Counted from the stretch's first letter, positions 1,178 to 62,830 are shown. The stretch is 64,000 bases of DNA from Candidatus Poriferihabitaceae bacterium (GCA_965262585.1 OZ253546.1:1098547-1162546), one strand, 5' to 3'. Numbers and translations are program-made. The notes: a model not told the origin generated them from the letters alone.

Positions 1178-1194
1178 GACGAGGAGGAATCGAT

Positions 1195-5341: not shown

Positions 5342-5454
5342 TTGCAACTGGCGCGTGGCGTTTTGCTTTTATTCATTTGATCCTGCCCGGCGGATGTTGG
5401 TGATATAATTCGGCTATCTGATGTGGTGGACCGATGTAACAGACATTCTACGCA

Positions 5455-5799: not shown

Positions 5800-5813
5800 T
5801 TCGAAAATCCCCG

Positions 5814-43380: not shown

Positions 43381-43447
43381 TGTCCTTTTAAGGAGCGGCT
43401 ACGCCGCACATGTCTTCCTGGATTCCCGCTTTCGCGGGAATGACGGG
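43381..43447. repeat. REP-type element (TTAAGGAGCGGCTACGCCGCAC...CTGGATTCCCGC-TTTC-GCGGGAATGAC)
   Basis: Alignable to 1111-1177. A second palindrome, GGACAGGTCGCGACCTGTCC, precedes it at about 43358-43377. Confidence 0.8.
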
Positions 43448-44737: not shown

Positions 44738-44769
44738 TTGTTGGTTCTTCCTTGTTGCTTTTTGTGAAA

Positions 44770-44852
44770 TTAAAGGGGTCAGTGTGAATTAAATTGATTA
44801 TACGGCCGAGAAGGGATGGGGGTTTATTTAATTCACACTGACCCCTTTATTC
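44770..44852 (+). repeat. Palindromic cassette-boundary element, copy R1
   Basis: AAAGGGGTCAGTGTGAATTAAAT - 31-nt asymmetric centre (TGATTATACGGCCGAGAAGGGATGGGGGTTT) - ATTTAATTCACACTGACCCCTTTAT. Confidence 0.95.
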
Positions 44853-44885: not shown

Positions 44886-45647
44886 TTAGAATCGAATATT
44901 TCCTAAATAAGGACGAATATTAAATGTTTTCATACTCGCTTGATTCAAAACTATGCTCATCATGGCATAAAATAATAATAATGGCTTTTCTGTCAAACTA
45001 GCAACATTTTTTGAAGTTAGGTCTGGAGTTATACGAAACATATCATCTGATGTTTGATTGAGAATAACTCCTTTGTTTAAAATACAAATAGAATCAATAC
45101 GCTTATGAACTGGCAATAAGTTCTGAAGTTCAACAAGATTAGTCAACACGGAATCTAGGTTTGGAGAATCGAAAGCGAACACAAAATGTTGCATTGGCCA
45201 ATCTTCCCATTTTTTACCATATAAAGTCTTCTTTTCAATCAAAATTGAATTAGGAGAAAAGAATGCTTTTTTTTCCAATTTTTTAACACTTTTCATATTA
45301 TCAAAAGCTTTTTCCAATTCGCTCTTGTCTAAATAAGCTTTAACCTCGATAACTGCGTACACACATTCAACAGGTATAACTCGCACATTTTCCGATTGAT
45401 AAAATATAGGCGTTTTAGCTGAATCATGAATGATAATATCTAATTGTCTAGAGACTCCACCATTTGAATCAACAATAGTACCTGAACTAATATCTAAAGT
45501 TCTAGGCAAATATTGCCTTAGAAAATCTTTAACAATCTGTTCATTTGCCGCTCCCTTTAAACCGGAATGATTTAAAGCTTTCCTAGATTTTTCGAAATCA
45601 GATAACATCTGAATAGAAACTTCATTAAAAATGTCTGATAGATTCAT
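44886..45647 (-). CDS. Cassette A: PD-(D/E)xK nuclease-fold protein, DUF6602-like
   Basis: AT-rich 253-aa ORF. GAANEQIVKDFLRQYLP ... SRQLDIIIHD ... VYAVIEVK gives an E / D / E-x-K arrangement and resembles the DUF6602 N-terminal pattern as I recall it. Confidence 0.55.
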   Translation of the reverse strand: MNLSDIFNEVSIQMLSDFEKSRKALNHSGLKGAANEQIVKDFLRQYLPRTLDISSGTIVDSNGGVSRQLDIIIHDSAKTPIFYQSENVRVIPVECVYAVIEVKAYLDKSELEKAFDNMKSVKKLEKKAFFSPNSILIEKKTLYGKKWEDWPMQHFVFAFDSPNLDSVLTNLVELQNLLPVHKRIDSICILNKGVILNQTSDDMFRITPDLTSKNVASLTEKPLLLFYAMMSIVLNQASMKTFNIRPYLGNIRF

Positions 45648-45653
45648 TTTAAA

Positions 45654-45734
45654 AATAAAGGGGTCAGTGTGAATAAATTGATTATACAGCCAAAAAGGAT
45701 GAGGGTTTATTTAATTCACACTGACCCCTTTATT
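45654..45734 (+). repeat. Palindromic cassette-boundary element, copy R2
   Basis: Same element and orientation as R1, with a 1-nt deletion in the left arm. It starts 7 nt from the cassette A start codon. Confidence 0.95.
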
Positions 45735-45806: not shown

Positions 45807-48800
45807 ATGCTCAACAAAATATCCCTCGACGACAAGTATGCGCTGGATGCGACTCGTGCTTATTTGACTGGCATTGAGGCGTTGGTGCGGCTGCCGATTT
45901 TGCAGCATCAGCGGGATCTCGAGGCCGGGTTGAATACGGCCGGTTTCGTTTCCGGGTATCGGGGTTCGCCGGTGGGGACGGTGGATCAGGCGATGTGGAA
46001 GGCGGCGGCGTGGTTGGACAAGCACCATATCCGTTTTCAGCCCGGCATCAACGAGGATTTGGCGGCGACCGCGGTTTGGGGCACTCAGCAAACCCACTTG
46101 TTGCCGGGGGCGAAATACGACGGCGTGTTCGCGCTTTGGTATGGCAAGGGGCCCGGCGTCGACCGCAGCATGGATGTGATTAAGCACGCCAACGCTTTTG
46201 GCACCACGCAATACGGCGGCGTGCTGGCGGTGGCCGGCGACGACCACGCTTGCAAGTCCTCCACGGTTCCGCATCAGAGCGAGCACATGTTCATCGGTGC
46301 CGCCGTGCCGGTGCTCAATCCGGCCAACGTTCAGGATGTGCTGGATTATGGAATCTACGGCTGGGCGTTGTCGCGCTATAGCGGGTGCTGGGTGGGGCTG
46401 AAAGCCATCACTGAAAACATGGATTCGGCGATCTCTGCGGACATCGATCCGGCCCGTGTGCAAATCCGCCTGCCCCACGATTTCGAGGAACCGCCGGGCG
46501 GCTTGAACGCGCACTGGCCCACCACGCCGCTAGAGCAAGAACAACTGCTGCACAAATACCGCATCTACGCCGCCCGCGCTTTCGCGTATGCCAACCACCT
46601 CAACCGGGTAACCCTCGACACGCCCAACCCGAGGCTTGGCATCGTAACTTCAGGGAAATCCCATCTCGATGTCATGGAAGCATTGCAAGACCTGGGCATC
46701 GACCAAAACACCGCCGGCGAAATTGGTATCCGCATCTATAAGGTCGGCATGAGTTGGCCGCTGGAACCCATCGCCACCCACCGCTTCGCCAAGGGCCTTC
46801 AAGAAATTCTGGTGGTGGAGGAAAAGCGCAGCATCCTTGAAGACCAAATCACCGGGCAACTATACAACTGGCCGGTGGCCGAGCGTCCCATGGTGGTGGG
46901 GGAATTCGACGAACACGGCAACGACTTGGTCACCAACCTCGGCGAACTAACCCCGGCGATGGTGGCGCGCGCTATCGGCAGTCGCGTTACCCGCTTTTAC
47001 GAAAGCCGCAGCATCCGCGAGCGGCTGGAGTTTCTCGACGCCAAAGAGCGACGCCTTGCCGCCCCCCACGAGTCGCTGACCCGCACTCCTTATTTTTGCT
47101 CCGGCTGTCCGCACAATACCTCGACGCGGGTTCCCGACGGCAGCGTTGGCATGGCCGGAATCGGCTGTCATTACATGGCCAAGTGGATGAACCGCAACAC
47201 CGAAACCTTCACCCAGATGGGCGGCGAAGGCGCGTCTTGGATCGGCATGGCGCCATTCACAAAAACCAAACATGTGTTCCAGAACATCGGTGATGGCACC
47301 TATTTTCACAGCGGCCTGCTTGCCATCCGCGCCGCCGTCTCCGCCGGTGTCAACATCACCTACAAGGTGTTACTCAACGACGCCGTCGCCATGACCGGCG
47401 GGCAACCGGTGGACGGCTCGCTGACCCTTGCGGAATTGGCGGCGCAGTTGCAGGCCGAAGGTGTTGTGCGGCTTGCGGTGGTTGCCGAAGATGTCAAAAA
47501 AGCCCAAAGCAAACTGCGCGGATTTAATCGCATCACCGTCCACCCACGGCGCGAATTCGACCAACTTCAACTGCAGTTTCGGGAAGTCAAAGGCACCAGC
47601 GTAATCATCTATGACCAGACCTGCGCCGCCGAAAAACGCCGCCGCCGCAAGCGCGGGCTGATGCCGGAAAGCCCGGCCCGGGTATTCATCAACGCCGAAG
47701 TTTGCGAAGGTTGCGGCGACTGCAGCACCACCTCCAACTGCCTGTCAGTATTGCCGAAAAAAACCGACCTCGGCGTCAAGCGACAGATCGACCAAAGTGC
47801 CTGCAACAAAGACTTCACCTGCCTCGACGGCTTCTGCCCAAGTTTTGTCACCGTCACCGGCGCCGTCTTGCGAAAGCCAAGCGACACACAAAGCGAAAGC
47901 CTGGAAGTGGTGCTCCCGGAGCCGCGACTGCCGCGCATCGAAAGGCCGTGGAACATCCTGGTCACCGGCATCGGCGGTACCGGCGTGCTCACCGTGGGTT
48001 CGCTGGTGGCCATGGCCGCCCACATCGAAGGCAAGGGCTGCGCAACCTTAAACCAAACTGGACTGGCGCAGAAATTCGGCGCGGTGGTCAGCCATGTGCG
48101 CATCGCCAAAAATCAAAACCAAATCCACGCGGTGCGCATTCCCGAAGGCGATGCCGACTTGCTGCTCGGTTGTGATTTGGTAGTCTCCGCCATGCCCGAA
48201 GCGCTGGCGCGGCTCGATGCGAAACGATCTCATTCGGTGGTGAACACCCATGAAAACCCCACCGCGGATTTCATTCACGATGCGCAGTATCGATTCCCCG
48301 GTGAATCCATGCGGCAACTGATCCGCGACGAAACCGGCACCGACAAAACCGCCTTCGTCAACGCCACCCGCATCGCCCGGGACTTGCTGGGCGACTCCAT
48401 CGGCGGCAATCTATTTTTGCTGGGCTTCGCGTATCAGCGCGGCCTGATTCCGGTCAGCGCCGAAGCCATCGACCGGGCTATCGAATTAAACGATGTTGCG
48501 GTGGAATTCAATCGCCGGGCATTTTTGTGGGGACGGCGCGCGGCGGTGAATCTTGAAGTGGTAGAAAACCTCGCCGGCCATAATCCCAAGCCCGCTTCGA
48601 CCACTCCGACATTAACCGGCGTGGATGAGATCATCGCCCAGCGGCATCGCCACCTGACCGCTTATCAGAACCGAAAATACGCCGACCGATACCGTGTGCT
48701 GGTGGAGCGCGTTCGGGATTTCGAAAACCAATTCACCGGCGGTGGCGATGAAACGGCCAACCTCACCGAAGCGGTGGCGCGTAATTATTTCAAACTGCTG

Positions 48801-49286
48801 GCGTATAAAGACGAATACGAAATCGCGCGGCTGTATTCCAACGGCGACTTCATCAACAACCTAAAAAAGCAATTCGCCGGTCCTTTCAAACTCAATTTCC
48901 ACCTCGCACCACCGCTACTGGCGCGCAAAGACCCGTTGACCGGCCACCCAATCAAACGCCGCTTCCCCGGCCTCACGCTGCAATTTTTCAACTTGCTCGC
49001 ACGCCTCAAATTCGTGCGTGGAACGCAACTGGATTTATTCGGCCACAGCCCGGAACGCAAACAAGAACGACAACTGATTGCGGATTATGAAAACGATCTG
49101 GCACAACTACTAAAATCGATAACCGCCGACAACTACTCAACCGCAATAGCCATCGCCGACCTACCAGAAATAGTCAAAGGCTTCGGCCACATCAAAATAG
49201 CCCACATCCAAAAATACCACGAAAGAAAAAAAGAACTACTCCGAAAATTCCACGGACCGGAAATAAAAGGGGTCAGTGTGAATTAA
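45807..49286 (+). CDS. Indolepyruvate:ferredoxin oxidoreductase family protein (fused alpha/beta)
   Basis: 1159 aa, GC-rich. N-terminus LDDKYALDATRAYLTGIEALVRLPI, a TPP-binding region, ferredoxin-type Cys cluster CEGCGDC, and a PFOR-gamma-like domain (ILVTGIGGTGV). The last 6 codons and the stop come from element R3. Confidence 0.9.
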   Translation: MLNKISLDDKYALDATRAYLTGIEALVRLPILQHQRDLEAGLNTAGFVSGYRGSPVGTVDQAMWKAAAWLDKHHIRFQPGINEDLAATAVWGTQQTHLLPGAKYDGVFALWYGKGPGVDRSMDVIKHANAFGTTQYGGVLAVAGDDHACKSSTVPHQSEHMFIGAAVPVLNPANVQDVLDYGIYGWALSRYSGCWVGLKAITENMDSAISADIDPARVQIRLPHDFEEPPGGLNAHWPTTPLEQEQLLHKYRIYAARAFAYANHLNRVTLDTPNPRLGIVTSGKSHLDVMEALQDLGIDQNTAGEIGIRIYKVGMSWPLEPIATHRFAKGLQEILVVEEKRSILEDQITGQLYNWPVAERPMVVGEFDEHGNDLVTNLGELTPAMVARAIGSRVTRFYESRSIRERLEFLDAKERRLAAPHESLTRTPYFCSGCPHNTSTRVPDGSVGMAGIGCHYMAKWMNRNTETFTQMGGEGASWIGMAPFTKTKHVFQNIGDGTYFHSGLLAIRAAVSAGVNITYKVLLNDAVAMTGGQPVDGSLTLAELAAQLQAEGVVRLAVVAEDVKKAQSKLRGFNRITVHPRREFDQLQLQFREVKGTSVIIYDQTCAAEKRRRRKRGLMPESPARVFINAEVCEGCGDCSTTSNCLSVLPKKTDLGVKRQIDQSACNKDFTCLDGFCPSFVTVTGAVLRKPSDTQSESLEVVLPEPRLPRIERPWNILVTGIGGTGVLTVGSLVAMAAHIEGKGCATLNQTGLAQKFGAVVSHVRIAKNQNQIHAVRIPEGDADLLLGCDLVVSAMPEALARLDAKRSHSVVNTHENPTADFIHDAQYRFPGESMRQLIRDETGTDKTAFVNATRIARDLLGDSIGGNLFLLGFAYQRGLIPVSAEAIDRAIELNDVAVEFNRRAFLWGRRAAVNLEVVENLAGHNPKPASTTPTLTGVDEIIAQRHRHLTAYQNRKYADRYRVLVERVRDFENQFTGGGDETANLTEAVARNYFKLLAYKDEYEIARLYSNGDFINNLKKQFAGPFKLNFHLAPPLLARKDPLTGHPIKRRFPGLTLQFFNLLARLKFVRGTQLDLFGHSPERKQERQLIADYENDLAQLLKSITADNYSTAIAIADLPEIVKGFGHIKIAHIQKYHERKKELLRKFHGPEIKGVSVN

Positions 49287-49345
49287 ATTGATTATATGGC
49301 GAAGAAAGGATGGGGGTTTATTTAATTCATACTGACTCCTTTATT
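49262..49345 (+). repeat. Palindromic cassette-boundary element, copy R3
   Basis: Same element. The left arm holds the stop of the oxidoreductase gene (49284-49286). The right arm holds the stop of cassette B (49322-49324). Confidence 0.95.
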
Positions 49346-50467
49346 CTTTTTAGATTTGTTTTTCTCTTTTTCAAGTAACTTAAACAACTGATCGCGCATT
49401 TCTTTAGCTTGTAATTCTTTAGCATCCCATTCTTGTTGGTTTTTAGGTTTTCTACCGAATTCGTCTTGTGTGGCTATAAGCTTCCCTCCATCACCAACAA
49501 TAATTATTCCTCTATCATGTCCAATAGACCTAAATTCTCTGGATATTAATATCTTATCCAATTTTTCCCAGTCTGTACTATTTAGCTGCTTTTCAGGAAA
49601 TAACCATTCTTTTTGTGCAGCAGCAATGTATCTGGATGCTCTACTTTTAAGAATATAATTTATCCCTAATACTGACTGAGTATCTAATTTTCGCCCCCTA
49701 ATAATATCATCATATTTAACTATTGTATCGTCGAAGTATCGAGCATTAGTCCTAGATTTAAGTGCTTTTAATTTTCCAGGATTTCTGGCGTATTCAGTAT
49801 TTGTTAGAATAACACAGTGATTTAAATCTATTGGAAAAATTGTTCTTGTTCCCATTAGCTCAATTCCTGGGTCATTAGGAAATTCACAGTATTTTGATTT
49901 AGGGTAGCAAGCAGGGTTATATGTAGTAATGGGTGTATCGCTAACTATGAATTTAATATCCGAATCTTCGGCACTTACAACTTCCATAACTGCTTCTGCC
50001 CACATGGTGCAATTCATTTGGCGTACAGTTTGCATTTCATGGAGTAAAGTATTGTAATCTTTTGGCTTCAATGTATTTATTAGCCAATTTAGACCCCGTG
50101 GTGTTCTAAGTTTCTGAGCATCCATATATTCAAAAAAGTTTAGGACATGAGGGTGTAGTTTCCTCATCCAGTTATCAGATGCTAAGACTGGGAGTGCACG
50201 CGAACCTATAGTATCTATTTTTCCAAATAGGTGTGTTTCAATATCATCATTATCTATTCCAAAGTATTTAGTAGTATACAAGTCAATTTCGTAGAATAAT
50301 TTACGTGGTCCTTTTTGTACTACCTCTCCTTTTTTTATTACTGTTCCATCAGGTATTTTTTCTGTTTTTGGATGAAAGTCTAATCTATGATATGACGATT
50401 GCCCTTTGAGCATGAAGCGCCTTTGATACCATATTGGCACATAATGGTGTTTATGTGATATTGCCAT
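49322..50467 (-). CDS. Cassette B: DUF4238-family protein
   Basis: AT-rich 381-aa ORF beginning MAISHKHHYVPIWYQRRF, the H-Y-V-P-x-x-Y-x-x-x-F signature I associate with DUF4238. Confidence 0.7.
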   Translation of the reverse strand: MAISHKHHYVPIWYQRRFMLKGQSSYHRLDFHPKTEKIPDGTVIKKGEVVQKGPRKLFYEIDLYTTKYFGIDNDDIETHLFGKIDTIGSRALPVLASDNWMRKLHPHVLNFFEYMDAQKLRTPRGLNWLINTLKPKDYNTLLHEMQTVRQMNCTMWAEAVMEVVSAEDSDIKFIVSDTPITTYNPACYPKSKYCEFPNDPGIELMGTRTIFPIDLNHCVILTNTEYARNPGKLKALKSRTNARYFDDTIVKYDDIIRGRKLDTQSVLGINYILKSRASRYIAAAQKEWLFPEKQLNSTDWEKLDKILISREFRSIGHDRGIIIVGDGGKLIATQDEFGRKPKNQQEWDAKELQAKEMRDQLFKLLEKEKNKSKKNKGVSMN

Positions 50468-50485
50468 TTCATTTATATGATTTCA

Positions 50486-50568
50486 AATAAAGGGGTCAGT
50501 GTGAATTAAATTGATTATACGGCCACGAAGGGATGAGGGTTTATTTAATTCACACTGACCCCTTTATT
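50486..50568 (+). repeat. Palindromic cassette-boundary element, copy R4
   Basis: Near-consensus copy. It lies 18 nt from the cassette B start and abuts the cassette C stop codon. Confidence 0.95.
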
Positions 50569-50569
50569 C

Positions 50570-51484
50570 TTATAGAATCTCATGTATCCGTAAATAAATA
50601 TTGCCTGTTTCTGAGGCTTTGCGACGTTTACGTAGCAATAATTGAACTAAATCAATTCTGCCCTCTAAAACAGCCATTAAATCACTACCATCCATAAGAA
50701 TTATAAGGCGTCTACCAGAAGAGTGTACTTTTACTGCATCTTCTGAGAAACCGTTAACTGATAGGAATAGCCCAAGTGTATTCTCTAACTTACGGGATAA
50801 CTTGCCAATCATTCCGTCTAGATCTTTTGCTGCCACAGGTTTTTGTTGCCATTTCGCCTCTAGTAGATAATCCGTCCCCTCAAAACTAAATGCACCATCT
50901 ATTTGTTCGCCAGTAATTTTAAAGGATGCTTTAGGATCGAGATCAAATAGGTCAAATAGACCTTTTAATACTTTCTCAAGGTTGTATCCACGTTGTTGCG
51001 GGTTATCAGAGCTAGCTAGCAAACAAAATTCTGTTTTTAGTTTATCCAATCCACCTTGAACGGCATTAACTTGCATGAGTTTATCGTGTGCTTTTTGACG
51101 ACGTTCTTCAGATTGCTTTTGTTCTTCTTCTATATCTTGATGTCCTTTCAATTGAGCACGAAGGGCTTCTACTGCTGCCTTAGCTTCTTCTGCCTTTTTA
51201 TTGCCATCCTCTAGCTTTCGCAGATGTGAAAAGTCTGTAACATCACTTACCTCTGACATTATACGAATGAGATCACGCTGACACACCTCCTCATTCATCG
51301 CCAAGTGGTCTACTACTGTAGCTACTATATTTCTTTTGTATTCTTCCCAATTTAGACGTGAAAGAATCCCTGGATCAGATATGCATTGAGATAGAAAACT
51401 GCGCAATTCTGATTTGTACCAGTAAATGAGCGTTAAAGCTTCCTTTAGTGCCTGTATCGCTGCGGGTGCTATTGTTTTCTGCAT
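50570..51484 (-). CDS. Cassette C: helical/coiled-coil N-domain fused to an Mrr-like PD-(D/E)xK restriction-endonuclease-fold C-domain
   Basis: AT-rich 304-aa ORF. A central Glu/Lys coiled coil, then C-terminal RGYNLEKVLKGLF ... GEQIDGAFSFEGTDYLLEAKWQQKPV ... LFLSVNGFSEDA (E / D / E-x-K core). Confidence 0.55.
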   Translation of the reverse strand: MQKTIAPAAIQALKEALTLIYWYKSELRSFLSQCISDPGILSRLNWEEYKRNIVATVVDHLAMNEEVCQRDLIRIMSEVSDVTDFSHLRKLEDGNKKAEEAKAAVEALRAQLKGHQDIEEEQKQSEERRQKAHDKLMQVNAVQGGLDKLKTEFCLLASSDNPQQRGYNLEKVLKGLFDLFDLDPKASFKITGEQIDGAFSFEGTDYLLEAKWQQKPVAAKDLDGMIGKLSRKLENTLGLFLSVNGFSEDAVKVHSSGRRLIILMDGSDLMAVLEGRIDLVQLLLRKRRKASETGNIYLRIHEIL

Positions 51485-51485
51485 G

Positions 51486-51568
51486 AATAAAAAGATCAGT
51501 GTGAATTAAATTGATTATACAGCCAAGAAGAGATGGGGGTTTATTTAATTCACACTGACTCCTTTATT
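51486..51568 (+). repeat. Palindromic cassette-boundary element, copy R5
   Basis: Same element with GGGG changed to AAGA in the left arm. It starts 1 nt from the cassette C start codon. Confidence 0.9.
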
Positions 51569-51582
51569 CCTTGTTAGATCGT

Positions 51583-52026
51583 TCATACCGAACTATCTAA
51601 AGTTCGTTTAATCATTGATGTCATATCACCAATTGCTCTGTATATATCATCACCTATTTGACATTTAATCAAAGAATCCTCCTCTGTTTTATAACCATGT
51701 ATTTTACTTTGTAGAAGTTGTGTTTTAGTTTCGAATTCTCCAATCTTAAATTTGTGGGCATTATCCTGAACTTTATCTAAAAAATCTTGAATACTATTTA
51801 TTACAGTTTGAGAATCTACACCACGCATAGGTTTGTTGGCCGGTGTTACAATTTTTCTGCACTCTTCTCTTGCACGATTCGCTGAAGATGCTAATTCAAT
51901 CAGTACAATTTTCAACCTATCTGATTTTATTTCTTCTTTATAAGTTTTTGCCTTATATGCCTGCCAAAAAGATAAGCTAGTTCCTATGAAGGTCAACCCA
52001 ATAGCAACAATATTCCAAAAATCCAT
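51583..52026 (-). CDS. Cassette D, gene 2: small protein with one N-terminal TM helix, unknown function
   Basis: 147 aa. A hydrophobic helix FWNIVAIGLTFIGTSLSFW is followed by a charged helical domain. The start lies 1 nt after the stop of the upstream gene. Confidence 0.5.
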   Translation of the reverse strand: MDFWNIVAIGLTFIGTSLSFWQAYKAKTYKEEIKSDRLKIVLIELASSANRAREECRKIVTPANKPMRGVDSQTVINSIQDFLDKVQDNAHKFKIGEFETKTQLLQSKIHGYKTEEDSLIKCQIGDDIYRAIGDMTSMIKRTLDSSV

Positions 52027-52027
52027 T

Positions 52028-52561
52028 TTATGCCATCCATGATGTGTCTACTATTTCGAGACCTGCTCTTTCAAAATATGAGTCGTAGTCATAAGTAGTT
52101 ATCAAAGAATTTAGCAATCGAAAAAAATGATATTTGTCTTTTGCTACGGTTAATTTTTCAATATCGTTAGTATCACGGTTAAACACCATTTGGGGAAGAG
52201 GAAGTTGACAACGTCCTCCATCAACAGTAACGTAAATGTCCCGATAAACTAATTGGCCGTAATAAAAAAAATCAACATAGCCACTTGATGCATGTGGATC
52301 TGGAAAGCCATTAGCCCATTTTTCTTTAAAGTCATCATTATGGGAAATTCCCCAAGCGACAGAGATAGACAGATCACTTTTAAGTGAAATTAATTCATCA
52401 TGCGAATCAACTTTTATATTGCTAAATTCTCCACCGCCTGTATTCCAAACTACAAATTTATTGAAGTATGAAGGCCCTGACCCGGATCCCCAGCAAGCAA
52501 TTCGATTCCAATCTTCTTTTTCTGCATCAAGAATCTGATCTTGATATTCTTTTAAATTCAT
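52028..52561 (-). CDS. Cassette D, gene 1: hypothetical soluble protein, no recognisable domain
   Basis: 177-aa AT-rich ORF with no motif I can assign. Confidence 0.5.
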   Translation of the reverse strand: MNLKEYQDQILDAEKEDWNRIACWGSGSGPSYFNKFVVWNTGGGEFSNIKVDSHDELISLKSDLSISVAWGISHNDDFKEKWANGFPDPHASSGYVDFFYYGQLVYRDIYVTVDGGRCQLPLPQMVFNRDTNDIEKLTVAKDKYHFFRLLNSLITTYDYDSYFERAGLEIVDTSWMA

Positions 52562-52627
52562 AAGTCCTCGTAAAATATTTTAGAGTTAACGTCTAGTATA
52601 AGGCAGTTTCGCCCTAATGCAAGAGTA

Positions 52628-52708
52628 GTAAAAAAGTCAGTATAAATTAAATTAATTATACAACCAAAAAGAGCTGAAGCTTTATTTAATTCACACCACC
52701 CCCTTTAT
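52628..52708 (+). repeat. Palindromic cassette-boundary element, degenerate copy R6
   Basis: AAAAAGTCAGTATAAATTAAAT...ATTTAATTCACACCACCCCCTTTAT. The right arm holds the last codons and the stop (52686-52688) of the paiB-like gene. Confidence 0.8.
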
Positions 52709-53336
52709 CCTGCCCTCGCACTACCTCAGCCATTTCCACGCTTGCTTGCCGTTCCTCTTTTAGCAGTCCTTCGACTACGCCGTGGCGGTCGTGGGGTGGG
52801 CGGTTTTGGCTGGCTTTGTATTTGCCGGTTAGGCGGGTGATGGGTATTTCAAGGCCGACGATGGCGTCCAGTTGTTGGGTGATAAAATCATCTGGCGCGT
52901 CCGTTACTTTCCATGGTTGGGGGCGGTTGGCTTCGTGGTGGTTGGTGAGGCGTTCGACTAACTCGCGTAGCCATGCGCGGTCTTCAATTACTCGCAATGA
53001 ACCGTGTGCGTGGACGACCGCGTAGTTCCAGGTCGGCACGACTTGCCCGGTGGTTTGTTTGGTCGCATACCAGGACGGGGAAATGTAGGCGTCGGGGCCG
53101 CGGAATATCGCCAGCGAGTCGGCTTCGGGGGAATACTCGCGCCATAGTGGGTTGGCGCGTGCAATGTGGCCGCGCAAGGTGCCGAAAGGGGCCGGGTCGG
53201 GGGTCGTCTCAAAGGGAATATGATGCGCGTCCAGTCCGTTTGCGGTGAGCGTCACCAGCGTTGCCAGCGGATACGCACGCATTAAGTCATGGAGAATTTC
53301 AACCCGCGTTTCCGCAAAGTATTTGGGTGTATACAT
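52686..53336 (-). CDS. FMN-binding negative transcriptional regulator (PaiB family)
   Basis: GC-rich 216-aa ORF. MYTPKYFAE...LATLVT...HIPF...GHIARANP follows the PaiB pattern. Confidence 0.85.
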   Translation of the reverse strand: MYTPKYFAETRVEILHDLMRAYPLATLVTLTANGLDAHHIPFETTPDPAPFGTLRGHIARANPLWREYSPEADSLAIFRGPDAYISPSWYATKQTTGQVVPTWNYAVVHAHGSLRVIEDRAWLRELVERLTNHHEANRPQPWKVTDAPDDFITQQLDAIVGLEIPITRLTGKYKASQNRPPHDRHGVVEGLLKEERQASVEMAEVVRGQDKGGGVN

Positions 53337-56360: not shown

Positions 56361-56380
56361 TGTGTATTGCTCGACTCGTC

Positions 56381-56490
56381 GTCATTCTCGTGAAAGTGGG
56401 AATCTAGTAAGACATGTCGGTGTAAGCCGCTCATTGTCATTCCCGTGAAAACGGGAATCCAGTAAGACATGTCGGCGTAAGCCGCTCATT
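56381..56490. repeat. Tandem duplication (2 x 55 bp) of a REP-type unit
   Basis: GTCATTCTCGTGAAAGTGGGAATCTAGTAAGACATGTCGGTGTAAGCCGCTCATT is followed by a near-identical copy. Confidence 0.9.
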
Positions 56491-56651
56491 AATAATGTTC
56501 GGCAACTGCCGACCGTTTTGTTATACACTACCCGCATCCTCGTCCGGGCTGTCAAACGGAATTTTGCGCCCTTTTCCAAAGATTTTTTATGTTCCAGTTA
56601 CACAAAATAATCTCCTATCTTCCCACCAATTTTTAGCACTCGGAACCATCC

Positions 56652-58271
56652 ATGCCGACCCTCGATTTCAAAGGCAAACAAATTATCTACGCGCACCACT
56701 TGACCGCCCCGTCAAAAGCGATTGAGGTGAACGCGAAAAAGTCGCTTCCGGCGAAAGGCACAAAGCCGTCCCTCGACGACAACCTGATTATCCACGGCGA
56801 TAACCTGCACGCGCTCAAGGCGTTGATGCCGCGTTATGCGGGGCGGGTGAATTGTATCTATATTGACCCGCCGTATAACACCGGCAACGAAGGATGGGTT
56901 TACAACGACAATGTGAATAGCGCAATGATGAAGGAGTGGTTGAAAGATAAAGGTTCAGTAGATGGTGAGGATTTGGAACGGCATGATAAGTGGCTTTGTA
57001 TGATGTGGCCGAGATTGCAGTTGTTGCGGGAGTTGTTGGCCGAAGATGGGGTGATTTTTATTTCCATTGATGATAAAGAGCAGCACCATCTGCGGATGAT
57101 GATGGATGAGATTTTTGGTGAGAATAATTTTGTTGGTAATATAGGATGGGAGTCCAAAACAAAGACACAGAACACAAAAGACTCTTTCAATAAATTACAA
57201 CCTAAAATAGAACATATTTTGTGCTATACAAAACTCACCAAAACGCGCTTCAATCTTATTGAAATTGGCAAGAAAAAATACCAAGAAAAAGATGAAAGAG
57301 GCAAGTTTCGTTACGCACAAGTTGAGCTGATGAGTTCGTTAGGAATTCGTTCACGCGATAGTATGATATTTCCCATATTAGGCATTAACCCACCGCCCAA
57401 CAAGCAATGGAAAATCGGCAAGCAGACGATAAAAAAATTTCGCGACCGCGGCGACCTTACAAAAAAAGAAAGCACGCCTTACCTTAAAATGCGACCTGCT
57501 GACGAACGAATAGAAAAGACAGAGCCTTTTTGGGGACTTTTCTCAAAAGAAAAGGGCACAGCCGAAAGTGCAAAAAAAGAATTGTCGGCAGTTTTAGAAT
57601 CGACTTCACATGGATTTGAAACAGTCAAACCTGTAAACGTTATAAAGCAACTTCTGTTCCATTCTACAAAACATGGAGACACCATCCTCGACTCCTTCGC
57701 CGGCTCCGGCACCACCGCCCACGCCGTCCTTGCCCTCAACAAAGAAGACGGCGGCAACCGAAAATTCATCCTCGTTGAATGCGAAAACTACGCCGACAAA
57801 ATCACCGCCGGACGAGTACGCCGAGTAATCAAGGGCGTGCCAAAAGCCAAAGATGAAACCCTGAAAAAAGGACTCGGCGGAAGTTTCACCTACTGCACAT
57901 TGGGCGATGAAATCAACATCGAAAAAATGCTCGCCGGCAAAAAACTACCGGACTACGAAACCTTAGCCCGCCATGTCGTCTATACCGCAACCGGCCAATC
58001 CCCACACAAAATCCGCAAACAACATGGCGAAGACGGGTTTTTCTACGAAACCAACGACAGGATATATTACTTGGTCTATAAACCAGAACTCGCTTTCCTG
58101 CGAAGCGCCGCCTCGGCCCTGAATGGCATCCGCGCCAAACGCATCGCCAAACAAGCCAAAACAAAAAAGAAAACCGCAATCGTATTCGCCACGCATAAAT
58201 TCATAGGACAAAAAGAATTAACAGCAATGGGAATTGTGTTTTGTGGGTTGCCGTATAGTACAAATTTATGA
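56652..58271 (+). CDS. mod: Type III restriction-modification methyltransferase (Mod; beta-class N6-adenine/N4-cytosine MTase)
   Basis: Motif IV IYIDPPYN comes before motif I DSFAGSGTTAHA (beta-class order), separated by a long variable central region. A res gene follows. Confidence 0.85.
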   Translation: MPTLDFKGKQIIYAHHLTAPSKAIEVNAKKSLPAKGTKPSLDDNLIIHGDNLHALKALMPRYAGRVNCIYIDPPYNTGNEGWVYNDNVNSAMMKEWLKDKGSVDGEDLERHDKWLCMMWPRLQLLRELLAEDGVIFISIDDKEQHHLRMMMDEIFGENNFVGNIGWESKTKTQNTKDSFNKLQPKIEHILCYTKLTKTRFNLIEIGKKKYQEKDERGKFRYAQVELMSSLGIRSRDSMIFPILGINPPPNKQWKIGKQTIKKFRDRGDLTKKESTPYLKMRPADERIEKTEPFWGLFSKEKGTAESAKKELSAVLESTSHGFETVKPVNVIKQLLFHSTKHGDTILDSFAGSGTTAHAVLALNKEDGGNRKFILVECENYADKITAGRVRRVIKGVPKAKDETLKKGLGGSFTYCTLGDEINIEKMLAGKKLPDYETLARHVVYTATGQSPHKIRKQHGEDGFFYETNDRIYYLVYKPELAFLRSAASALNGIRAKRIAKQAKTKKKTAIVFATHKFIGQKELTAMGIVFCGLPYSTNL

Positions 58272-58930
58272 TTTTAAACACTTTATACGTACTTGGTGCA
58301 GTAGCAAGCATTAGGGATTTTTTTTATGATGGAGCAGCGAATCTTTCGCCATGGCTCATCTTGACTATCGGCGTGCTGTGTACAGCAACATTTTGGAAAA
58401 AAAATCGTTCGCCATGGATATTCTTGACTATCGGCGTGCTGTTCGTGGTGGTGATTTGGGGGTTAAATCGTTCGCCATCACCCCCTGCGAAGGATCAAGA
58501 AAGTGAAGAATCTATTGTGGTAACTCAAGAAAGTGAAGAATCTATTGTGGTAACTCAAGAAAGTGAAGAAGTGTTAGTTCCAGGAAATGAACAACTTGAA
58601 GAGTTAAATGAACACACCAATTTGACCTTAAGGAAATTGGAAATTGCTTTTTTATCCGCACAGAAAATATCTAGCACTATATCTCGCGATGAAACATTAG
58701 AACTTGTGATTACGAAGGCTTTACAAAGTGAAGAAGATAAATTTGCTTTTAAGGTTGCACTCCAAATTTCTTCTATCCGTTCTCGAGACAAGATGTTGAT
58801 AAGGATAATTGACAAGTCTCTGGAAAATGGAAATATAGATACTGCAGAATCAGTATCTAATAAGATTTCTTCCATCTTAACTCGTGATGAGGTAAAAAGA
58901 AAAATAGTTGATTTTATTTTTATAGACTAA
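58268..58930 (+). CDS. Repeat-containing membrane protein of unknown function inserted between mod and res
   Basis: 220 aa, AT-rich. Contains duplicated TM modules (SPWLILTIGVLCTATFWKKNR / SPWIFLTIGVLFVVVIWGLNR), QESEESIVVT at 2.5 copies, and three ISSxxSRDxxL..I helical repeats. The ATG overlaps the mod stop (ATGA). Confidence 0.55.
   Translation: MILNTLYVLGAVASIRDFFYDGAANLSPWLILTIGVLCTATFWKKNRSPWIFLTIGVLFVVVIWGLNRSPSPPAKDQESEESIVVTQESEESIVVTQESEEVLVPGNEQLEELNEHTNLTLRKLEIAFLSAQKISSTISRDETLELVITKALQSEEDKFAFKVALQISSIRSRDKMLIRIIDKSLENGNIDTAESVSNKISSILTRDEVKRKIVDFIFID
58496..58570 (+). repeat. Perfect 30-bp in-frame tandem repeat (2.5 copies) inside the membrane-protein gene
   Basis: CAAGAAAGTGAAGAATCTATTGTGGTAACT occurs twice, plus a 15-bp partial copy. 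Confidence 0.9.
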
Positions 58931-58980
58931 TAATTCAATGCACATTAAAAATCACCAACCCAAATCCCTGGAACATTGAT

Positions 58981-61527
58981 ATGCAACTCAAAAACTACCA
59001 ACAACAAACCCTCGATCAATTAGACCGATGGCTTGATGCGCTCAAAGAAGCCCGTTTGGAAGGCGAAAAGACGATCAAAGTTCTTGAGAAACAAAAAATC
59101 GATGTCCCCGAAGTAGTGCGGAATTATCCCGAAACCGCATGGAAAAGCCTGAGCAACCAAAACCTTCTCCCCCGCATTCAACAACAAGACGGGGACTCTA
59201 AAACCCCCGGCTACATTTCCCGCACCGCATCATCCGGCGCACCTATTCCGCATGTTTGCTTGAAAATTCCAACCGGCGGTGGCAAAACACTTTTGGGAGT
59301 CTCCGCTTTGGAGCGCATCAAACAAGACACCGGTTTTGTTTTGTGGATTGTGCCGACTAGGGCGATTTACCAGCAAACCCTGACTGCTTTTCGAACCCGT
59401 GAACATCCTTACCGGCAGATGCTTGAGCGAATCTCCGGTGGCAAGGTCAAACTGCTGCAAAAAGTCGACCGATTTACCCGGCAGGATATTGAAAGCCAAC
59501 TGTGCGTGATGATGCTGATGTTGCCGGCGGTCAACCGGCAAAAGGGCAAGGGTTTTCTCAAGATATTCCGCGACAGCGGCGGGTATACCTCGTTCTTTCC
59601 CGAACAAGATGATGCGGGCGCAAATACAATTCTTTCGCAACAGCATCCCGACTTGGAAAAAAATCAAACCGGCGACTGGGTAAAGCAAAGCTTGATTAAC
59701 ACTCTGAAACTGATTCGCCCGACCGTGATTTTGGACGAAGCGCATAAGGCATATGGGAAAAAAGACGCAACCGAGTTTGTAAAGTCCGTCAACCGACTCA
59801 ATCCTCGCTTTGTTGTTGAACTGTCGGCCACGCCGAAACTCGGCATCAGCAACATTCTGGTCGATATTTCGGGAACCGCGCTTCAAGACGAGGAGATGAT
59901 TAAACTCCCGATAGAGATTCGCAGTTTCATTAATTCTGACTGGAAACACACGCTTGCCGAAACACAAAATAAATTGGCCGAACTGGAACGGGAAGCGAAG
60001 AAATCGCAACACCACGGGGGCGGTTATATTCGGCCAATCGCGCTGGTACGCGTGCAGAGAACCGGGAAAAACCAGCGCAAGCAGGGGTATATTCATTCCG
60101 ATGATGCGCGGGAATACCTGATACAAAATCTTTCCGTGCCGGAACAACACATACGAATTCAATCATCAGAACAAAAGGAACTGGCGGGCGAAGATCTGCA
60201 CAGCGAAACAAGCCCGGTGCGCTGGATTATCACAAAAGATGCGCTCAAAGAGGGTTGGGATTGCTCGTTTGCGTATCTTCTGGCGTTGCTGGATAACACC
60301 ACGGCGTCAACGGCGATGACGCAAATGGTCGGGCGGGTAATGCGACAGCCATACGCGCAACTGGTTAAAAAAAGCGCGGCGTTGAACCAGTGTTATGTCT
60401 ACTGTTACAACATGGATGTGGGCACGGCGGTTAAAGGAGTGAGCGCCGGGCTGGAAAACGAAGGGCTGACCGGACTTGGTAACGCTATTCGCGGATACGG
60501 CGGCGGAGAACAACCGCAACGGCAAACCGTCAAACGCAGGCAACCCTATAAAAAGTTAAACATTTGTCTCCCGCAGGTGCTACATAAAGAAGGGAATGGA
60601 TGGCGTCCGATTGATTACGACCGCGATATTTTGAGCGCGGTGAACTGGGACAAAATTAGCGGCGGCCATGCGGTTAATTTGGATGATGAAGATGTCGTCC
60701 GGGAATGCAAAACCACGATTGACATTCAGGGGCAAGGCGAGGTGTTGGAAGAGAACTATGACACTGGAGAAAGTCTGACGCTGGATTATTTTGTCCGGCG
60801 GCTTACGGATATGATTCCCAATCCGTGGCAAGCGGCGCGCGTGGCGGAGAATTTCATCGGCAAGCACAGCAACCCGCAACACGGCGATTCCAAATTATTG
60901 AATAACCGAATTTATCTTTCGGAGGTATTGAGAAAGAGGGTGAAAAAAGATATTGACGGCAAAGCCGAAACGGTGTTCCGCGCTAAAGTCGGACGAAACG
61001 AAATCAGGTTTCATCTTGTGGCCGATAAGAACCTGAACCACGAACTAAGCAATTCGTTCGAGGTGGTTGTGTCCGGTGACGCACGAACATTGCAAGCCCA
61101 ACACGGTCAACCGATACAGCGAAGCCTGTTTTCCCCCATTTATGAAAACAATTTCAACGGACTTGAAAAAGATTTTGCGCTGTATCTGGACGAAAGCGAT
61201 GCGATCTATTGGTGGCATCGAATCGCCGCACGGCAGGCGTATTCTCTTCAAGGCTGGCGGCGACAACGGGTTTATCCCGACTTTGTGGCGTGCAGAAAAG
61301 AAAACGGCACTCTGCTGGTTTTAGAAACAAAAGGCGCGCACTTGCAAGGCAACGAAGATACGATCTACAAGAAAAAACTGCTTGATGCGCTTGAGAAAAC
61401 TTACACGACCGCCATCGACAGGGGAACATTGGAAATCAATGAATTCCCCGCCGCCACTTTCAGAATGATGTTTGAGAACAGTTGGAAAGAGGATGTGAAC
61501 GCCCTCATCTCCGACACACAACCATAA
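58981..61527 (+). CDS. res: Type III restriction endonuclease Res subunit (SF2 helicase + PD-(D/E)xK nuclease)
   Basis: Walker A LKIPTGGGKT, DEAH box ILDEAHKAYG, motif VI-like MVGRVMRQP, and a C-terminal nuclease motif YPDF...VLETKG. Confidence 0.85.
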   Translation: MQLKNYQQQTLDQLDRWLDALKEARLEGEKTIKVLEKQKIDVPEVVRNYPETAWKSLSNQNLLPRIQQQDGDSKTPGYISRTASSGAPIPHVCLKIPTGGGKTLLGVSALERIKQDTGFVLWIVPTRAIYQQTLTAFRTREHPYRQMLERISGGKVKLLQKVDRFTRQDIESQLCVMMLMLPAVNRQKGKGFLKIFRDSGGYTSFFPEQDDAGANTILSQQHPDLEKNQTGDWVKQSLINTLKLIRPTVILDEAHKAYGKKDATEFVKSVNRLNPRFVVELSATPKLGISNILVDISGTALQDEEMIKLPIEIRSFINSDWKHTLAETQNKLAELEREAKKSQHHGGGYIRPIALVRVQRTGKNQRKQGYIHSDDAREYLIQNLSVPEQHIRIQSSEQKELAGEDLHSETSPVRWIITKDALKEGWDCSFAYLLALLDNTTASTAMTQMVGRVMRQPYAQLVKKSAALNQCYVYCYNMDVGTAVKGVSAGLENEGLTGLGNAIRGYGGGEQPQRQTVKRRQPYKKLNICLPQVLHKEGNGWRPIDYDRDILSAVNWDKISGGHAVNLDDEDVVRECKTTIDIQGQGEVLEENYDTGESLTLDYFVRRLTDMIPNPWQAARVAENFIGKHSNPQHGDSKLLNNRIYLSEVLRKRVKKDIDGKAETVFRAKVGRNEIRFHLVADKNLNHELSNSFEVVVSGDARTLQAQHGQPIQRSLFSPIYENNFNGLEKDFALYLDESDAIYWWHRIAARQAYSLQGWRRQRVYPDFVACRKENGTLLVLETKGAHLQGNEDTIYKKKLLDALEKTYTTAIDRGTLEINEFPAATFRMMFENSWKEDVNALISDTQP

Positions 61528-62691: not shown

Positions 62692-62826
62692 TCCGGCAGC
62701 GAACAAGCAGGTCTGCGCCGCCGCACCGTTTCGCGTATCAACATAGATAACATTTTTGCTAGGCATTACGGTGTCACCGAGGAAGAACTGGATTACATTG
62801 TCAACTACGATATCGAATGGGATTAG
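62692..62826 (+). pseudogene. Orphan 3' fragment of a DNA-methyltransferase-like gene
   Basis: This frame reads ...RINIDNIFARHYGVTEEELDYIVNYDIEWD-stop. It resembles the conserved C-terminal tail (HYGLTxEELDFIINYDIKYR) seen on some defence-associated SAM-dependent DNA methyltransferases. There is no upstream body or start; an in-frame stop sits at 62689. Confidence 0.35.
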
Positions 62827-62830
62827 GAAA

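What the first reader, a model, noticed from the sequence alone, without database searches (positions are those of the whole stretch)
51583..52561. Two-gene cassette of unknown proteins (177-aa soluble + 147-aa single-TM): candidate novel abortive-infection or toxin-type module
This is the only cassette with two ORFs. They are separated by a single nucleotide (stop ends at 52028, next start at 52026), so they are almost certainly co-translated. Gene 1 (MNLKEYQDQILDAEKEDWNRIACWGSGSGPSYF...) has no motif I can assign. Gene 2 has one N-terminal TM helix followed by a charged helical domain.

A sensor-like soluble protein paired with a small membrane protein is the architecture of many abortive-infection systems. 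Here the pair sits in an array with nuclease-type cassettes. I could not match either protein to a named family.
Basis: inference. Interest (0 to 1): 0.72.

Follow-up and report, generated by a model that had tools for sequence, protein, structure and literature searches.

The report
Uncharacterised two-gene cassette in defence hotspot
Two tightly linked genes of unknown function (a soluble protein whose predicted fold matches no known structure, plus a small membrane-anchored helical protein) form a conserved, horizontally mobile pair that sits in a strain-variable hotspot full of anti-phage genes, so it is a credible but untested new phage-defence candidate.

Summary
On the minus strand, gene 1 (52561-52028, 177 aa) and gene 2 (52026-51583, 147 aa) are separated by one nucleotide. 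Neither matches Pfam, NCBIfam, PHROGs or PDB.

The pair is real and conserved. A gene-2 homologue lies directly downstream of a gene-1 homologue in about 14 distinct loci from unrelated phyla. Gene 1 is the core: its family has about 1,230 clusters. It often occurs alone, once with a lipoprotein partner, and once fused to the effector-recruiting adaptor EAD7. 56 of 109 members weakly hit the PADLOC candidate PDC-S50.

The context favours defence:
- One homologue pair sits in the P2 gpA-gpQ hotspot.
- Treponema copies sit in restriction-modification/toxin-antitoxin islands.
- In the window the cassette lies with DUF4238 and an uncharacterised 304-aa cassette; a NucC-like cassette sits at the adjacent hotspot.
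- Two sister genomes (about 97% identical flanks) carry TIR, HEPN-like, methyltransferase and other unrelated genes at this site, and NERD, Schlafen-like and STAND genes at the adjacent hotspot.

Cassettes are bounded by an 82-nt perfect hairpin that is not an attC site. The mechanism is unknown. Toxin-antitoxin and RexAB membership are not supported. It remains a candidate new defence module, unvalidated.

The parts
52028..52561 (-). Gene 1: 177-aa soluble protein, mostly beta strands, fold unmatched. It is the core of a large uncharacterised family. Residues near-invariant across the family: W18, G71, W82, D97, R107, V113-D114-G115, R117, P121, P123.
   Evidence: ORF. Homologues. AlphaFold2 pLDDT 88 and pTM 0.82. 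No PDB or BFVD fold match. No Pfam, NCBIfam, PHROG or PDB sequence match. Conservation.
51583..52026 (-). Gene 2: 147-aa protein with an N-terminal hydrophobic helix (about residues 4-24), the conserved juxtamembrane motif WQAY[KR]AK, the loop TPxxKPxRGVD, and a helical bundle predicted to be cytoplasmic. It starts 1 nt after the gene 1 stop codon.
   Evidence: A homologue lies directly downstream of a gene-1 homologue in about 14 distinct loci.
52627..52709 (.). Hairpin repeat R6, the upstream boundary of the cassette. Its distal arm is degenerate and encodes the C-terminus and stop codon of the core FMN_bind_2 gene.
   Evidence: The same variant occurs at the same position in sister genomes.
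51486..51568 (.). Hairpin repeat R5, the downstream boundary of the cassette. It lies 14 nt after the gene 2 stop codon.
   Evidence: A sister copy (R4) folds with a 26-bp perfect stem, dG -25.9 kcal/mol, z = -10.
50570..51484 (-). Neighbouring cassette: 304-aa protein with no Pfam family and only a weak PADLOC PDC-S02 hit (E 0.006).
50486..50568 (.). Hairpin repeat R4.
49322..50467 (-). Neighbouring cassette: 381-aa DUF4238 protein. A DUF4238 protein from the P2 hotspot was shown to protect against phage T7.
   Evidence: Pfam 2.3e-14. Rousset 2022, PMC9122126.
49263..49345 (.). Hairpin repeat R3. It overlaps the stop codon of the core indolepyruvate ferredoxin oxidoreductase (IOR) gene.
44886..45647 (-). 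Single cassette of the second hotspot (between hairpins R1 44769-44851 and R2 45654-45734): 253-aa NucC-like PD-DExK nuclease.
   Evidence: PADLOC PD_DExK 1.7e-43 and NucC 2.9e-30. Repeats.
45807..49286 (+). Core gene, indolepyruvate ferredoxin oxidoreductase (IOR), lying between the two hotspots. It is about 97% identical in the sister genomes.
52686..53336 (-). Core gene (FMN_bind_2, PaiB-like) forming the right border of the hotspot.
   Evidence: Pfam 8.7e-66. Conserved in sister genomes.

Best explanation
The cassette is a horizontally mobile, two-protein conflict module, most likely anti-phage defence or phage exclusion.

Gene 1 encodes the conserved core. It is a cytosolic, mostly beta-strand domain of about 175 aa with an unmatched predicted fold and a near-invariant polar constellation (D97, R107, D114-G-G-R117). 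I infer that it is the active component, either an effector or a combined sensor-effector.

Gene 2 encodes a clade-specific partner. It is anchored in the inner membrane by one N-terminal helix, with a helical bundle facing the cytoplasm. I infer that it tethers or gates gene 1 at the membrane, for example coupling its activity to phage entry or envelope perturbation. Alternatively, it supplies membrane damage once triggered.

Shown: the genes, their conservation as a unit, their mobility, and their placement in defence hotspots. Inferred: the defence function, the division of labour, and any growth-arrest or exclusion outcome.
For: (1) Conserved unit. A2-type genes lie -44 to +3 nt downstream of A1-type genes in about 14 distinct loci from Burkholderiaceae, Moraxellaceae, Pirellulales, Treponema, a P2-like prophage and others. 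Pairwise identities of the two proteins are correlated (r = 0.81, Mantel p about 2e-4; near-duplicate loci such as L009/L020 and L039/L047 inflate this, and Spearman rho is 0.42).

(2) Defence hotspots.
- In L011 the pair lies between Phage_GPA (E 1.5e-86) and the portal gene. This is the P2 gpA-gpQ hotspot that carries old/tin and validated defence systems (PMC9122126).
- In 8 of 8 Treponema contexts the pair sits with DNA methylases, HNH/BpuJI/HaeIII endonucleases, RelB/YoeB, a resolvase and DUF3990.
- L015 has NmeDI_C, DUF1016 and DUF3990 nearby.
- L018 carries a gene-1 homologue as a moron (an accessory gene inserted among the phage's own genes) between lambdoid tail genes.

(3) The window's own site. 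Its flanks are 96-97% identical to two sister genomes, but the inserted DNA is unrelated. Between IOR and FMN_bind_2 the sisters carry TIR, DUF1883-TIR, a weak HEPN-like protein, a methyltransferase pair and several proteins with no family. At the adjacent hotspot upstream of IOR they carry NERD, SLFN_AlbA_2, nSTAND3 and DUF3800. In the window the cassette shares its array with DUF4238, and a NucC-like cassette occupies the adjacent hotspot.

(4) Gene 1 is the core.
- Its family has 1,228 clusters at 50% identity.
- It is solitary in at least 10 loci.
- P0113 carries a C-terminal EAD7 (E 6e-12), an adaptor said to recruit effectors (PMC7159879).
- 56 of 109 members hit the PADLOC defence candidate PDC-S50, best E 2e-6.

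(5) Low GC (36-41% against 58%) marks the cassette as foreign DNA.
Against: No experiment and no significant match to any validated defence protein. The window protein's PDC-S50 hit is only E 0.008 over 58 residues, and PDC-S50 is itself only a candidate.

Many homologue neighbourhoods are housekeeping genes: Lon, methionine synthase/DsrE, TsaD, queuosine synthesis, ribosomal protein L13. Island enrichment is therefore not uniform and was not tested statistically.

There are no hits in 50,697 sequenced phages and only 3 in IMG/VR. The EAD7 fusion is a single case among 150 listed proteins. No catalytic fold or known effector chemistry was recognised. The hydrophobicity of gene 2's membrane helix is modest in the window copy. 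No complex model could be computed.
Confidence: 0.55

Rival explanations
1. Toxin-antitoxin or addiction module. One protein is toxic (for example the membrane protein) and the other neutralises it. The pair stabilises the cassette array or the mobile element rather than sensing phage.
For: Two small, tightly coupled genes. Toxin-antitoxin cassettes are common in cassette arrays and defence islands. RelB/YoeB and nucleotidyltransferase/HEPN-like pairs lie near homologues.
Against: Gene 1 occurs alone in at least 10 loci and with a different partner in L018. It therefore behaves neither as a toxin that needs its antitoxin nor as an antitoxin that needs a toxin. There is no DNA-binding or antitoxin-like domain and no known toxin fold. 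In the Bathymodiolus symbiont both genes look degraded together, which does not fit an addictive module.
Confidence: 0.12
2. A function that benefits mobile elements but is not host defence. Examples are a counter-defence (anti-immunity) factor, or an inter-element competition or entry-exclusion factor carried as a moron by prophages and plasmids.
For: Homologues sit in prophage moron slots (P2 hotspot, lambdoid tail region), on a phage-plasmid of Aneurinibacillus, and on small Klebsiella ColE1 plasmids. A membrane-anchored partner or a lipoprotein partner would suit exclusion at the envelope.
Against: In the window and in Treponema the pair is chromosomal and sits among restriction-modification, DUF4238 and (in the sister genomes) TIR-type cassettes rather than inside a phage. 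Exclusion by a prophage is in practice a form of defence, so this rival overlaps the best explanation. Nothing resembles known anti-defence proteins.
Confidence: 0.15
3. An accessory physiological function unrelated to genetic conflict, for example envelope stress, small-molecule binding or metabolism. In this reading the cassette is merely hitch-hiking in a recombination hotspot.
For: Several homologues are flanked only by housekeeping genes. No defence domain was recognised.
Against: The distribution is patchy across phyla, with up to 63% identity to the window protein (43-63% among the nearest homologues). GC content is foreign. Placement in three independent kinds of defence hotspot recurs. 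One family member has an EAD7 fusion. The family weakly resembles PDC-S50.
Confidence: 0.12

Closest known systems
RexAB of phage lambda and the RexAB-like 'Sucellos' (SclAB) integron cassette of Vibrio cholerae
   Same: A two-gene module combining a soluble protein and a membrane protein, carried in prophages and in a chromosomal cassette array. For Sucellos, both genes are needed and infection triggers cell death (bioRxiv 10.1101/2024.07.02.601686).
   Different: No fold or sequence similarity was found. The PDB search returned no RexA or RexB. Gene 2 has one predicted membrane helix plus a cytosolic bundle. RexB is a polytopic channel (from my own knowledge). Gene 1 often occurs without the membrane partner.
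PADLOC phage-defence candidate PDC-S50 (single-gene candidate, 387-position profile)
   Same: The most conserved core of gene 1 (residues about 75-132) aligns to profile positions about 216-273. 56 of 109 family members hit it, best E 2e-6.
   Different: Only a segment of about 58 residues matches. The window protein scores E 0.008 (13 bits). PDC-S50 is more than twice as long, is a single gene, and is itself unvalidated. No paper mentions it.
Defence cargo of the P2-like prophage gpA-gpQ hotspot (old, tin, DUF4238 and others; Rousset et al. 2022)
   Same: A homologous pair occupies exactly this locus in a P2-like prophage. The window's neighbouring cassette is a DUF4238 protein like the validated anti-T7 one.
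   Different: The pair is not among the systems tested there as far as PADLOC models show. The window copy is chromosomal, not prophage-borne.
Sedentary chromosomal integron cassette arrays as defence 'biobanks'
   Same: Co-oriented, small, low-GC cassettes of one or a few genes. They have unrelated content and are separated by near-identical structured repeats. They are enriched in streamlined defence genes and vary between strains.
   Different: The repeat is a perfect 26-bp-stem hairpin with a conserved 31-nt loop. It has no AAC/GTT core triplets and no bulged bases. No integrase motif was found in 64 kb. There are two separate short arrays, wedged between convergent or adjacent core genes whose stop codons lie inside the repeat.
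EAD-coupled effectors of NTPase-centred conflict systems (Kaur, Burroughs, Iyer, Aravind 2020)
   Same: One family member (P0113) is a gene-1 domain fused to EAD7, the architecture described for recruited effectors.
   Different: The window protein has no EAD and no STAND or vWA-MoxR neighbour. Only one such fusion was seen.

Membership tests
RexAB / Sucellos-type two-gene abortive infection | RexA-like fold of the soluble component | tested here: not met
   Foldseek of a confident model (pLDDT 88) against PDB entries to April 2026. Best hit E 0.17, TM 0.21, and no RexA.
RexAB / Sucellos-type two-gene abortive infection | Polytopic membrane channel partner (RexB-like) | tested here: not met
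   Gene 2 has a single N-terminal hydrophobic helix followed by a soluble helical bundle. Only generic bundle hits were found.
RexAB / Sucellos-type two-gene abortive infection | Both genes required; infection-triggered loss of membrane potential or cell death | not testable with these tools
   Needs phage challenge and single-gene constructs.
Integron gene cassette (IntI/attC) | attC site: imperfect inverted repeats with conserved 5'-AAC/GTT-3' core triplets, bulged bases and an unpaired central spacer (features from established knowledge of integrons) | tested here: not met
   The six repeats align as an 82-nt element with a perfect 26-bp stem. There are no bulges and no AAC...GTT at symmetric positions. 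IntegronFinder was not run.
Integron gene cassette (IntI/attC) | Adjacent intI integrase with attI and Pc | tested here: inconclusive
   A regex search for tyrosine-recombinase box motifs in all six frames of the 64-kb window found nothing. No HMM scan of all ORFs was possible, and the rest of the 2.6-Mb genome was not seen.
Integron gene cassette (IntI/attC) | Co-oriented short cassettes separated by homogeneous structured repeats, with strain-variable content | tested here: met
Type II toxin-antitoxin pair | Obligate pairing of the two genes | tested here: not met
   Gene-1 homologues have no gene-2-like neighbour in L001, L013, L018, L019, L023, L024, L025, L038, L040, L042 and L046.
Type II toxin-antitoxin pair | Recognisable toxin fold and DNA-binding antitoxin | tested here: not met
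   No Pfam, NCBIfam, PADLOC or PDB match of that kind.
PADLOC PDC-S50 | Significant match to the family HMM over most of its length | tested here: not met
   Window protein E 0.008, residues 75-132 against profile positions 216-273 of 387. This is a family-level partial resemblance only: 56 of 109 members, best E 2e-6.
EAD-coupled effector (Kaur et al. 2020) | Fusion to an effector-associated domain, with a cognate copy on a neighbouring NTPase-system protein | tested here: not met
   The window protein has no EAD. One relative, P0113, carries EAD7; its neighbourhood was not examined.
P2-like prophage gpA-gpQ hotspot cargo | Location between replication gene A and portal gene Q | tested here: met
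   Met for the homologue pair in L011/L012: Phage_GPA at 2-1447, the pair at 4017-5004, the portal gene at 5036-6070. It does not apply to the window copy, which is chromosomal.

The most novel reading that the evidence does not exclude
Gene 1 founds a large (more than 1,200 clusters), structurally new family of anti-phage effector or sensor-effector proteins. These work alone, with a membrane anchor (gene 2 or a lipoprotein), or plugged into NTPase systems through EAD7. In this genome the family is delivered by a previously undescribed cassette system. That system resembles an integron but lacks attC sites and an integrase: an 82-nt perfect hairpin, which also supplies the stop codon of adjoining genes, marks the exchange points of strain-variable defence cassettes.
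Probability: 0.3. Interest if true: 0.8.

Novelty: new variant of a known kind. Interest (0 to 1): 0.56.

Why it matters
If the pair protects against phages, it would add a defence family with an unmatched fold and a simple, testable architecture: a 177-aa core with or without a 147-aa membrane anchor. It would also give a function to more than a thousand 'hypothetical protein' clusters spread across phyla.

The hairpin-bounded arrays matter separately. They show a hotspot where unrelated small defence genes are swapped between strains whose flanking sequence is about 97% identical. This happens at a structured repeat that is not an integron attC site. That points to an unrecognised mechanism of cassette capture or exchange, and to a convenient way to mine streamlined defence genes in this lineage.

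Tried and rejected
- **Family assignment.** Pfam, NCBIfam, PHROGs and PADLOC scans of both proteins, and of 109 family members, gave nothing. The only exceptions were the weak PDC-S50 signal and a single EAD7 fusion.
- **Sequence search of PDB.** Family profiles gave no hit for gene 1. Gene 2 gave only non-significant helical hits.
- **Fold search.** PDB and BFVD searches for gene 1, and a PDB search for gene 2, found no significant match. The top PDB hits for gene 1 (the MenT3/TglT toxin, E 0.17, TM 0.2) were rejected as noise.
- **RexAB or Sucellos membership.** Rejected: different folds and different membrane topology.
- **Integron attC interpretation of the repeats.** Rejected on sequence and structure. 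No Rfam family matches the repeat.
- **Dispersed miniature transposon (MITE) or REP-type explanation.** Thought unlikely, because all 12 arm matches in the 64-kb window lie at cassette borders.
- **Neisseria-type DNA-uptake-sequence or minimal-mobile-element idea.** Rejected because no uptake sequences are present.
- **Exact hairpin search.** Nothing was found in JGI metagenomes or IMG/VR.
- **Searches with little or no yield.** The genome-contig scan with the broad alignment A3 failed because no conserved stretch was available; the A1 scan returned only 6 loci. Looking up the window's own gene 1 gave no record. Gene 2 has no relatives in IMG/VR, INPHARED or PLSDB. No sigma-70 promoter consensus was found upstream of gene 1.

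Full report
**1. The observation**

Both ORFs are present on the minus strand. Gene 1 runs 52561->52028 (177 aa) and gene 2 runs 52026->51583 (147 aa). The raw sequence shows TAA (52030-52028), one base, then ATG (52026-52024).

The region is 36-41% GC in a genome of about 58% GC. Both ORFs have many homologues. Gene 1 has 36 proteins at 43-63% identity, with E down to 8e-76. Gene 2 has 17 proteins at 40-50% identity. They are therefore genuine genes.

**2. No known family**

Neither protein matches Pfam, NCBIfam or PHROGs. In PADLOC the only signal is gene 1 against the candidate PDC-S50, at E 0.008.

A profile of gene 1 homologues searched against 1.84 billion representative proteins finds 1,228 clusters at E <= 1e-3 and 648 at E <= 1e-10. 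Nearly all are stand-alone proteins of 160-180 aa. Scanning 109 diverse members gives no Pfam, NCBIfam, PHROG or PDB sequence match. However, 56 of the 109 hit PDC-S50, best E 2e-6. This is a partial, family-level resemblance that covers the most conserved core.

One member (P0113) carries a C-terminal EAD7 domain, E 6e-12. Kaur et al. 2020 describe EAD7 as an adaptor that mainly recruits effectors to NTPase-centred conflict systems (PMC7159879).

**3. Predicted structures**

- Gene 1 gives a confident AlphaFold2 model (pLDDT 88, pTM 0.82). It is mostly beta strands with three helices, and the conserved CWGxGSGPSY loop is flexible. Foldseek finds nothing significant in PDB (best E 0.17, TM 0.21) or BFVD (best E 0.007, TM 0.30).
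- Across the wide family the near-invariant residues are W18, G71, W82, D97, R107, V113-D114-G115, R117, P121 and P123. This polar cluster could form an active or ligand-binding site (inference).
- Gene 2 is modelled (pLDDT 82) as a long N-terminal helix (residues 2-60) followed by a helical bundle. Only generic bundle hits were found.
- Gene 2's hydrophobic segment (about residues 4-24) is followed by a lysine-rich stretch. By the positive-inside rule, the bundle should face the cytoplasm (inference).
- The most conserved part of gene 2 is residues 22-79, which include WQAY[KR]AK and TPxxKPxRGVD.

**4. The pair is a unit, with gene 1 as the core**

HMMs of both families were run on all fetched loci. 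A gene-2 homologue lies -44 to +3 nt downstream of the gene-1 homologue in the window and in about 13 other distinct loci. These include Burkholderiaceae, Moraxellaceae, Pirellulales, gut Treponema, a P2-like prophage and several metagenomic contigs.

Pairwise identities of the two proteins are correlated (r = 0.81, Mantel p about 2e-4). Near-duplicate loci inflate this value; Spearman rho is 0.42. Gene 2 evolves faster, with mean identity 37% against 54% for gene 1.

Gene 1 also occurs without gene 2:
- It is alone in at least 10 loci: an Aneurinibacillus phage-plasmid, Bryobacterales and others.
- In a lambdoid prophage it is followed instead by a 105-aa lipoprotein.
- In the Bathymodiolus symbiont both genes look degraded.

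This pattern argues against an obligate toxin-antitoxin pair. Gene 1 looks like the functional core and gene 2 like a clade-specific partner.

**5. Context of homologues**

- In L011 the pair lies between Phage_GPA (E 1.5e-86) and the portal gene. This is the gpA-gpQ hotspot of P2-like phages, which carries old/tin and validated defence systems (PMC9122126).
- In all eight Treponema contexts the pair follows variable restriction-modification modules. It is flanked by RelB/YoeB, a resolvase, DUF3791/DUF3990 and Type_ISP_C.
- L015 is similar, with NmeDI_C and DUF1016.
- L018 places a gene-1 homologue as a moron (an accessory gene inserted among the phage's own genes) between tail genes K and I.
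- A census of 122 neighbouring ORFs from 13 further loci is mixed. It contains cytosine methylases, CHAT, TPR, Trypsin_2, Resolvase, ResIII and RhuM. It also contains clear housekeeping genes.

The association with defence is therefore recurrent but not universal. I did not test it statistically.

**6. The window's own locus**

The cassette is bounded by copies of an 82-nt element. This element forms a perfect 26-bp hairpin with a conserved 31-nt loop (dG -25.9 kcal/mol, z = -10). All six copies in the window lie at cassette borders.

They define two arrays on either side of the core indolepyruvate ferredoxin oxidoreductase (IOR) gene:
- R1-R2 holds a NucC-like nuclease (PADLOC 1.7e-43).
- R3-R6 holds DUF4238, a 304-aa protein, and the two-gene cassette.

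A DUF4238 protein from the P2 hotspot was shown to protect against phage T7.

Two sister genomes have flanks 96-97% identical at the nucleotide level. Their low-GC DNA at both sites is entirely different, and only the hairpins are shared:
- Between IOR and FMN_bind_2, one sister carries a TIR protein, a DUF1883-TIR protein, a protein with a weak HEPN match and three proteins with no family. The other carries a methyltransferase plus a 216-aa protein, a 185-aa protein and a 559-aa protein.
- At the adjacent hotspot upstream of IOR, one sister carries NERD-zinc-ribbon and SLFN_AlbA_2 proteins plus several with no family. The other carries nSTAND3 and DUF3800 proteins.

Some of their cassettes hold two or more genes. 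This is a strain-variable defence hotspot, and it is the strongest local argument for a conflict function.

**7. What the repeats are not**

The repeats lack the AAC/GTT core triplets and the bulged bases of integron attC sites. They match no Rfam family. A crude motif search found no tyrosine recombinase in the 64-kb window. Exact hairpin searches of JGI metagenomes and IMG/VR were empty. How cassettes are exchanged remains open.

**8. Mechanism**

Best-supported reading (confidence about 0.55): this is a mobile two-protein conflict module, most likely anti-phage.
- The gene 1 domain is the active core (effector or sensor-effector).
- The membrane-anchored gene 2 protein tethers or gates it at the inner membrane, or contributes membrane damage.

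Every step beyond 'conserved mobile pair in defence hotspots' is inference.

Rivals are toxin-antitoxin/addiction (0.12), a counter-defence or exclusion function serving mobile elements (0.15), and a non-conflict accessory function (0.12).

**9. Comparison with known systems**

- The closest functional analogues are RexAB and the RexAB-like Sucellos integron cassette. Fold and topology tests for membership fail.
- The nearest sequence relative is the unvalidated PADLOC candidate PDC-S50, and the match is only partial.
- The array resembles a sedentary chromosomal integron acting as a defence biobank. It fails the attC test.

**10. Verdict**

This is a credible, uncharacterised defence candidate built from new protein families. 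It sits in an unusual hairpin-bounded cassette hotspot. Interest is moderate to high and depends on experimental validation.

Noticed in passing
window 44769-44851, 45654-45734, 49263-49345, 50486-50568, 51486-51568, 52627-52709; L026 3129-3214, 5148-5232, 7750-7809 (half), 9857-9941, 13454-13542, 14501-14586, 18546-18608; L027 13454-13541, 14920-15004, 15631-15715, 17440-17502: An 82-nt perfect hairpin (26-bp stem, conserved 31-nt loop) bounds co-oriented low-GC cassettes at two hotspots flanking the IOR gene. Three genomes with about 97% identical flanks share the hairpins, but their cassette content is unrelated. The repeat is not attC-like, has no Rfam family, and is absent from JGI metagenomes and IMG/VR. 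It may mark a non-integron mechanism of cassette exchange.
   Followed up: partly
window 49263-49345 and 52627-52709 (also 44769-44851): The hairpin supplies the last codons and the stop codon of genes reading into it from either side. The IOR protein ends ...KGVSVN*, DUF4238 ends ...KGVSMN*, and FMN_bind_2 ends ...KGGGVN*. The core genes' 3' ends are therefore embedded in the repeat.
   Followed up: partly
loop of each hairpin, e.g. window 50512-50542 (minus strand): The hexamer TATAAT, read on the strand of the cassette genes, is invariant in all six loop copies (invariant columns). It has no good -35 partner. The hairpin could act as a combined terminator and weak promoter that insulates each cassette. 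This is untested.
   Followed up: no
window 44886-45647 (-): A NucC-like PD-DExK nuclease (PADLOC E 1.7e-43) sits as a lone cassette. No cyclic-oligonucleotide synthase or type III CRISPR genes lie nearby in the window.
   Followed up: no
window 50570-51484 (-): A 304-aa cassette protein with no Pfam family and only a weak PADLOC PDC-S02 hit (E 0.006). By eye its middle part looks like a charged helical stretch and its C-terminal half has a motif (DGAFSFEGTDYLLEAKWQ) reminiscent of restriction-endonuclease-like folds. Its start codon abuts hairpin R5.
   Followed up: no
window 56652-61527 (+): A low-GC operon that looks like type III restriction-modification, judged from the translations alone (no family scan was run on these window ORFs). 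It has a 539-aa putative methyltransferase; its counterpart in sister genome L027, about 96% identical in DNA, is recorded as N6_N4_Mtase. It also has an 848-aa helicase/Res-like protein. Between them lies a 220-aa hydrophobic protein containing a 30-nt tandem repeat (58495-58584, QESEESIVVT x2-3), which may vary in length. The methyltransferase part is shared with L027.
   Followed up: no
window 62756-63673 (+): Another low-GC ORF (305 aa) with no assignment, just beyond the restriction-modification-like operon. It may be a further accessory or defence gene.
   Followed up: no
window 1148-1178, 22298-22549, 43385-43445, 56375-56533: A second repeat family (TTCCCGC-N-GCGGGAATGACG-type small palindromes, partly tandem 55-mers) lies at the borders between core and variable DNA. 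These borders are the left edge of hotspot 1 and the junction before the restriction-modification-like operon. It also matches L026 22258-22374.
   Followed up: partly
L018 7959-8822: In a lambdoid prophage, a gene-1 homologue (41% identity) is inserted between tail genes K and I. It is followed immediately by a 105-aa lipoprotein (lipobox LAGC) instead of gene 2. This is a second kind of envelope-associated partner.
   Followed up: partly
L004 6001-6953 (Bathymodiolus thermophilus symbiont): Gene 1 has internal deletions in the conserved loop. Gene 2 has lost its N-terminal membrane helix (125-nt gap, 82-104 aa remnant). The pair appears to be decaying there.
   Followed up: partly
L055 (Klebsiella ColE1-type plasmids of 4.6 kb, e.g. 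NZ_CP092518.1 1261-1656): A distant, N-terminally shorter homologue of gene 1 (about 131 aa, 31% identity, E 5e-4) is one of the few cargo genes of small non-mobilisable Klebsiella plasmids. Short forms (130-150 aa) are also common in the wide family.
   Followed up: partly
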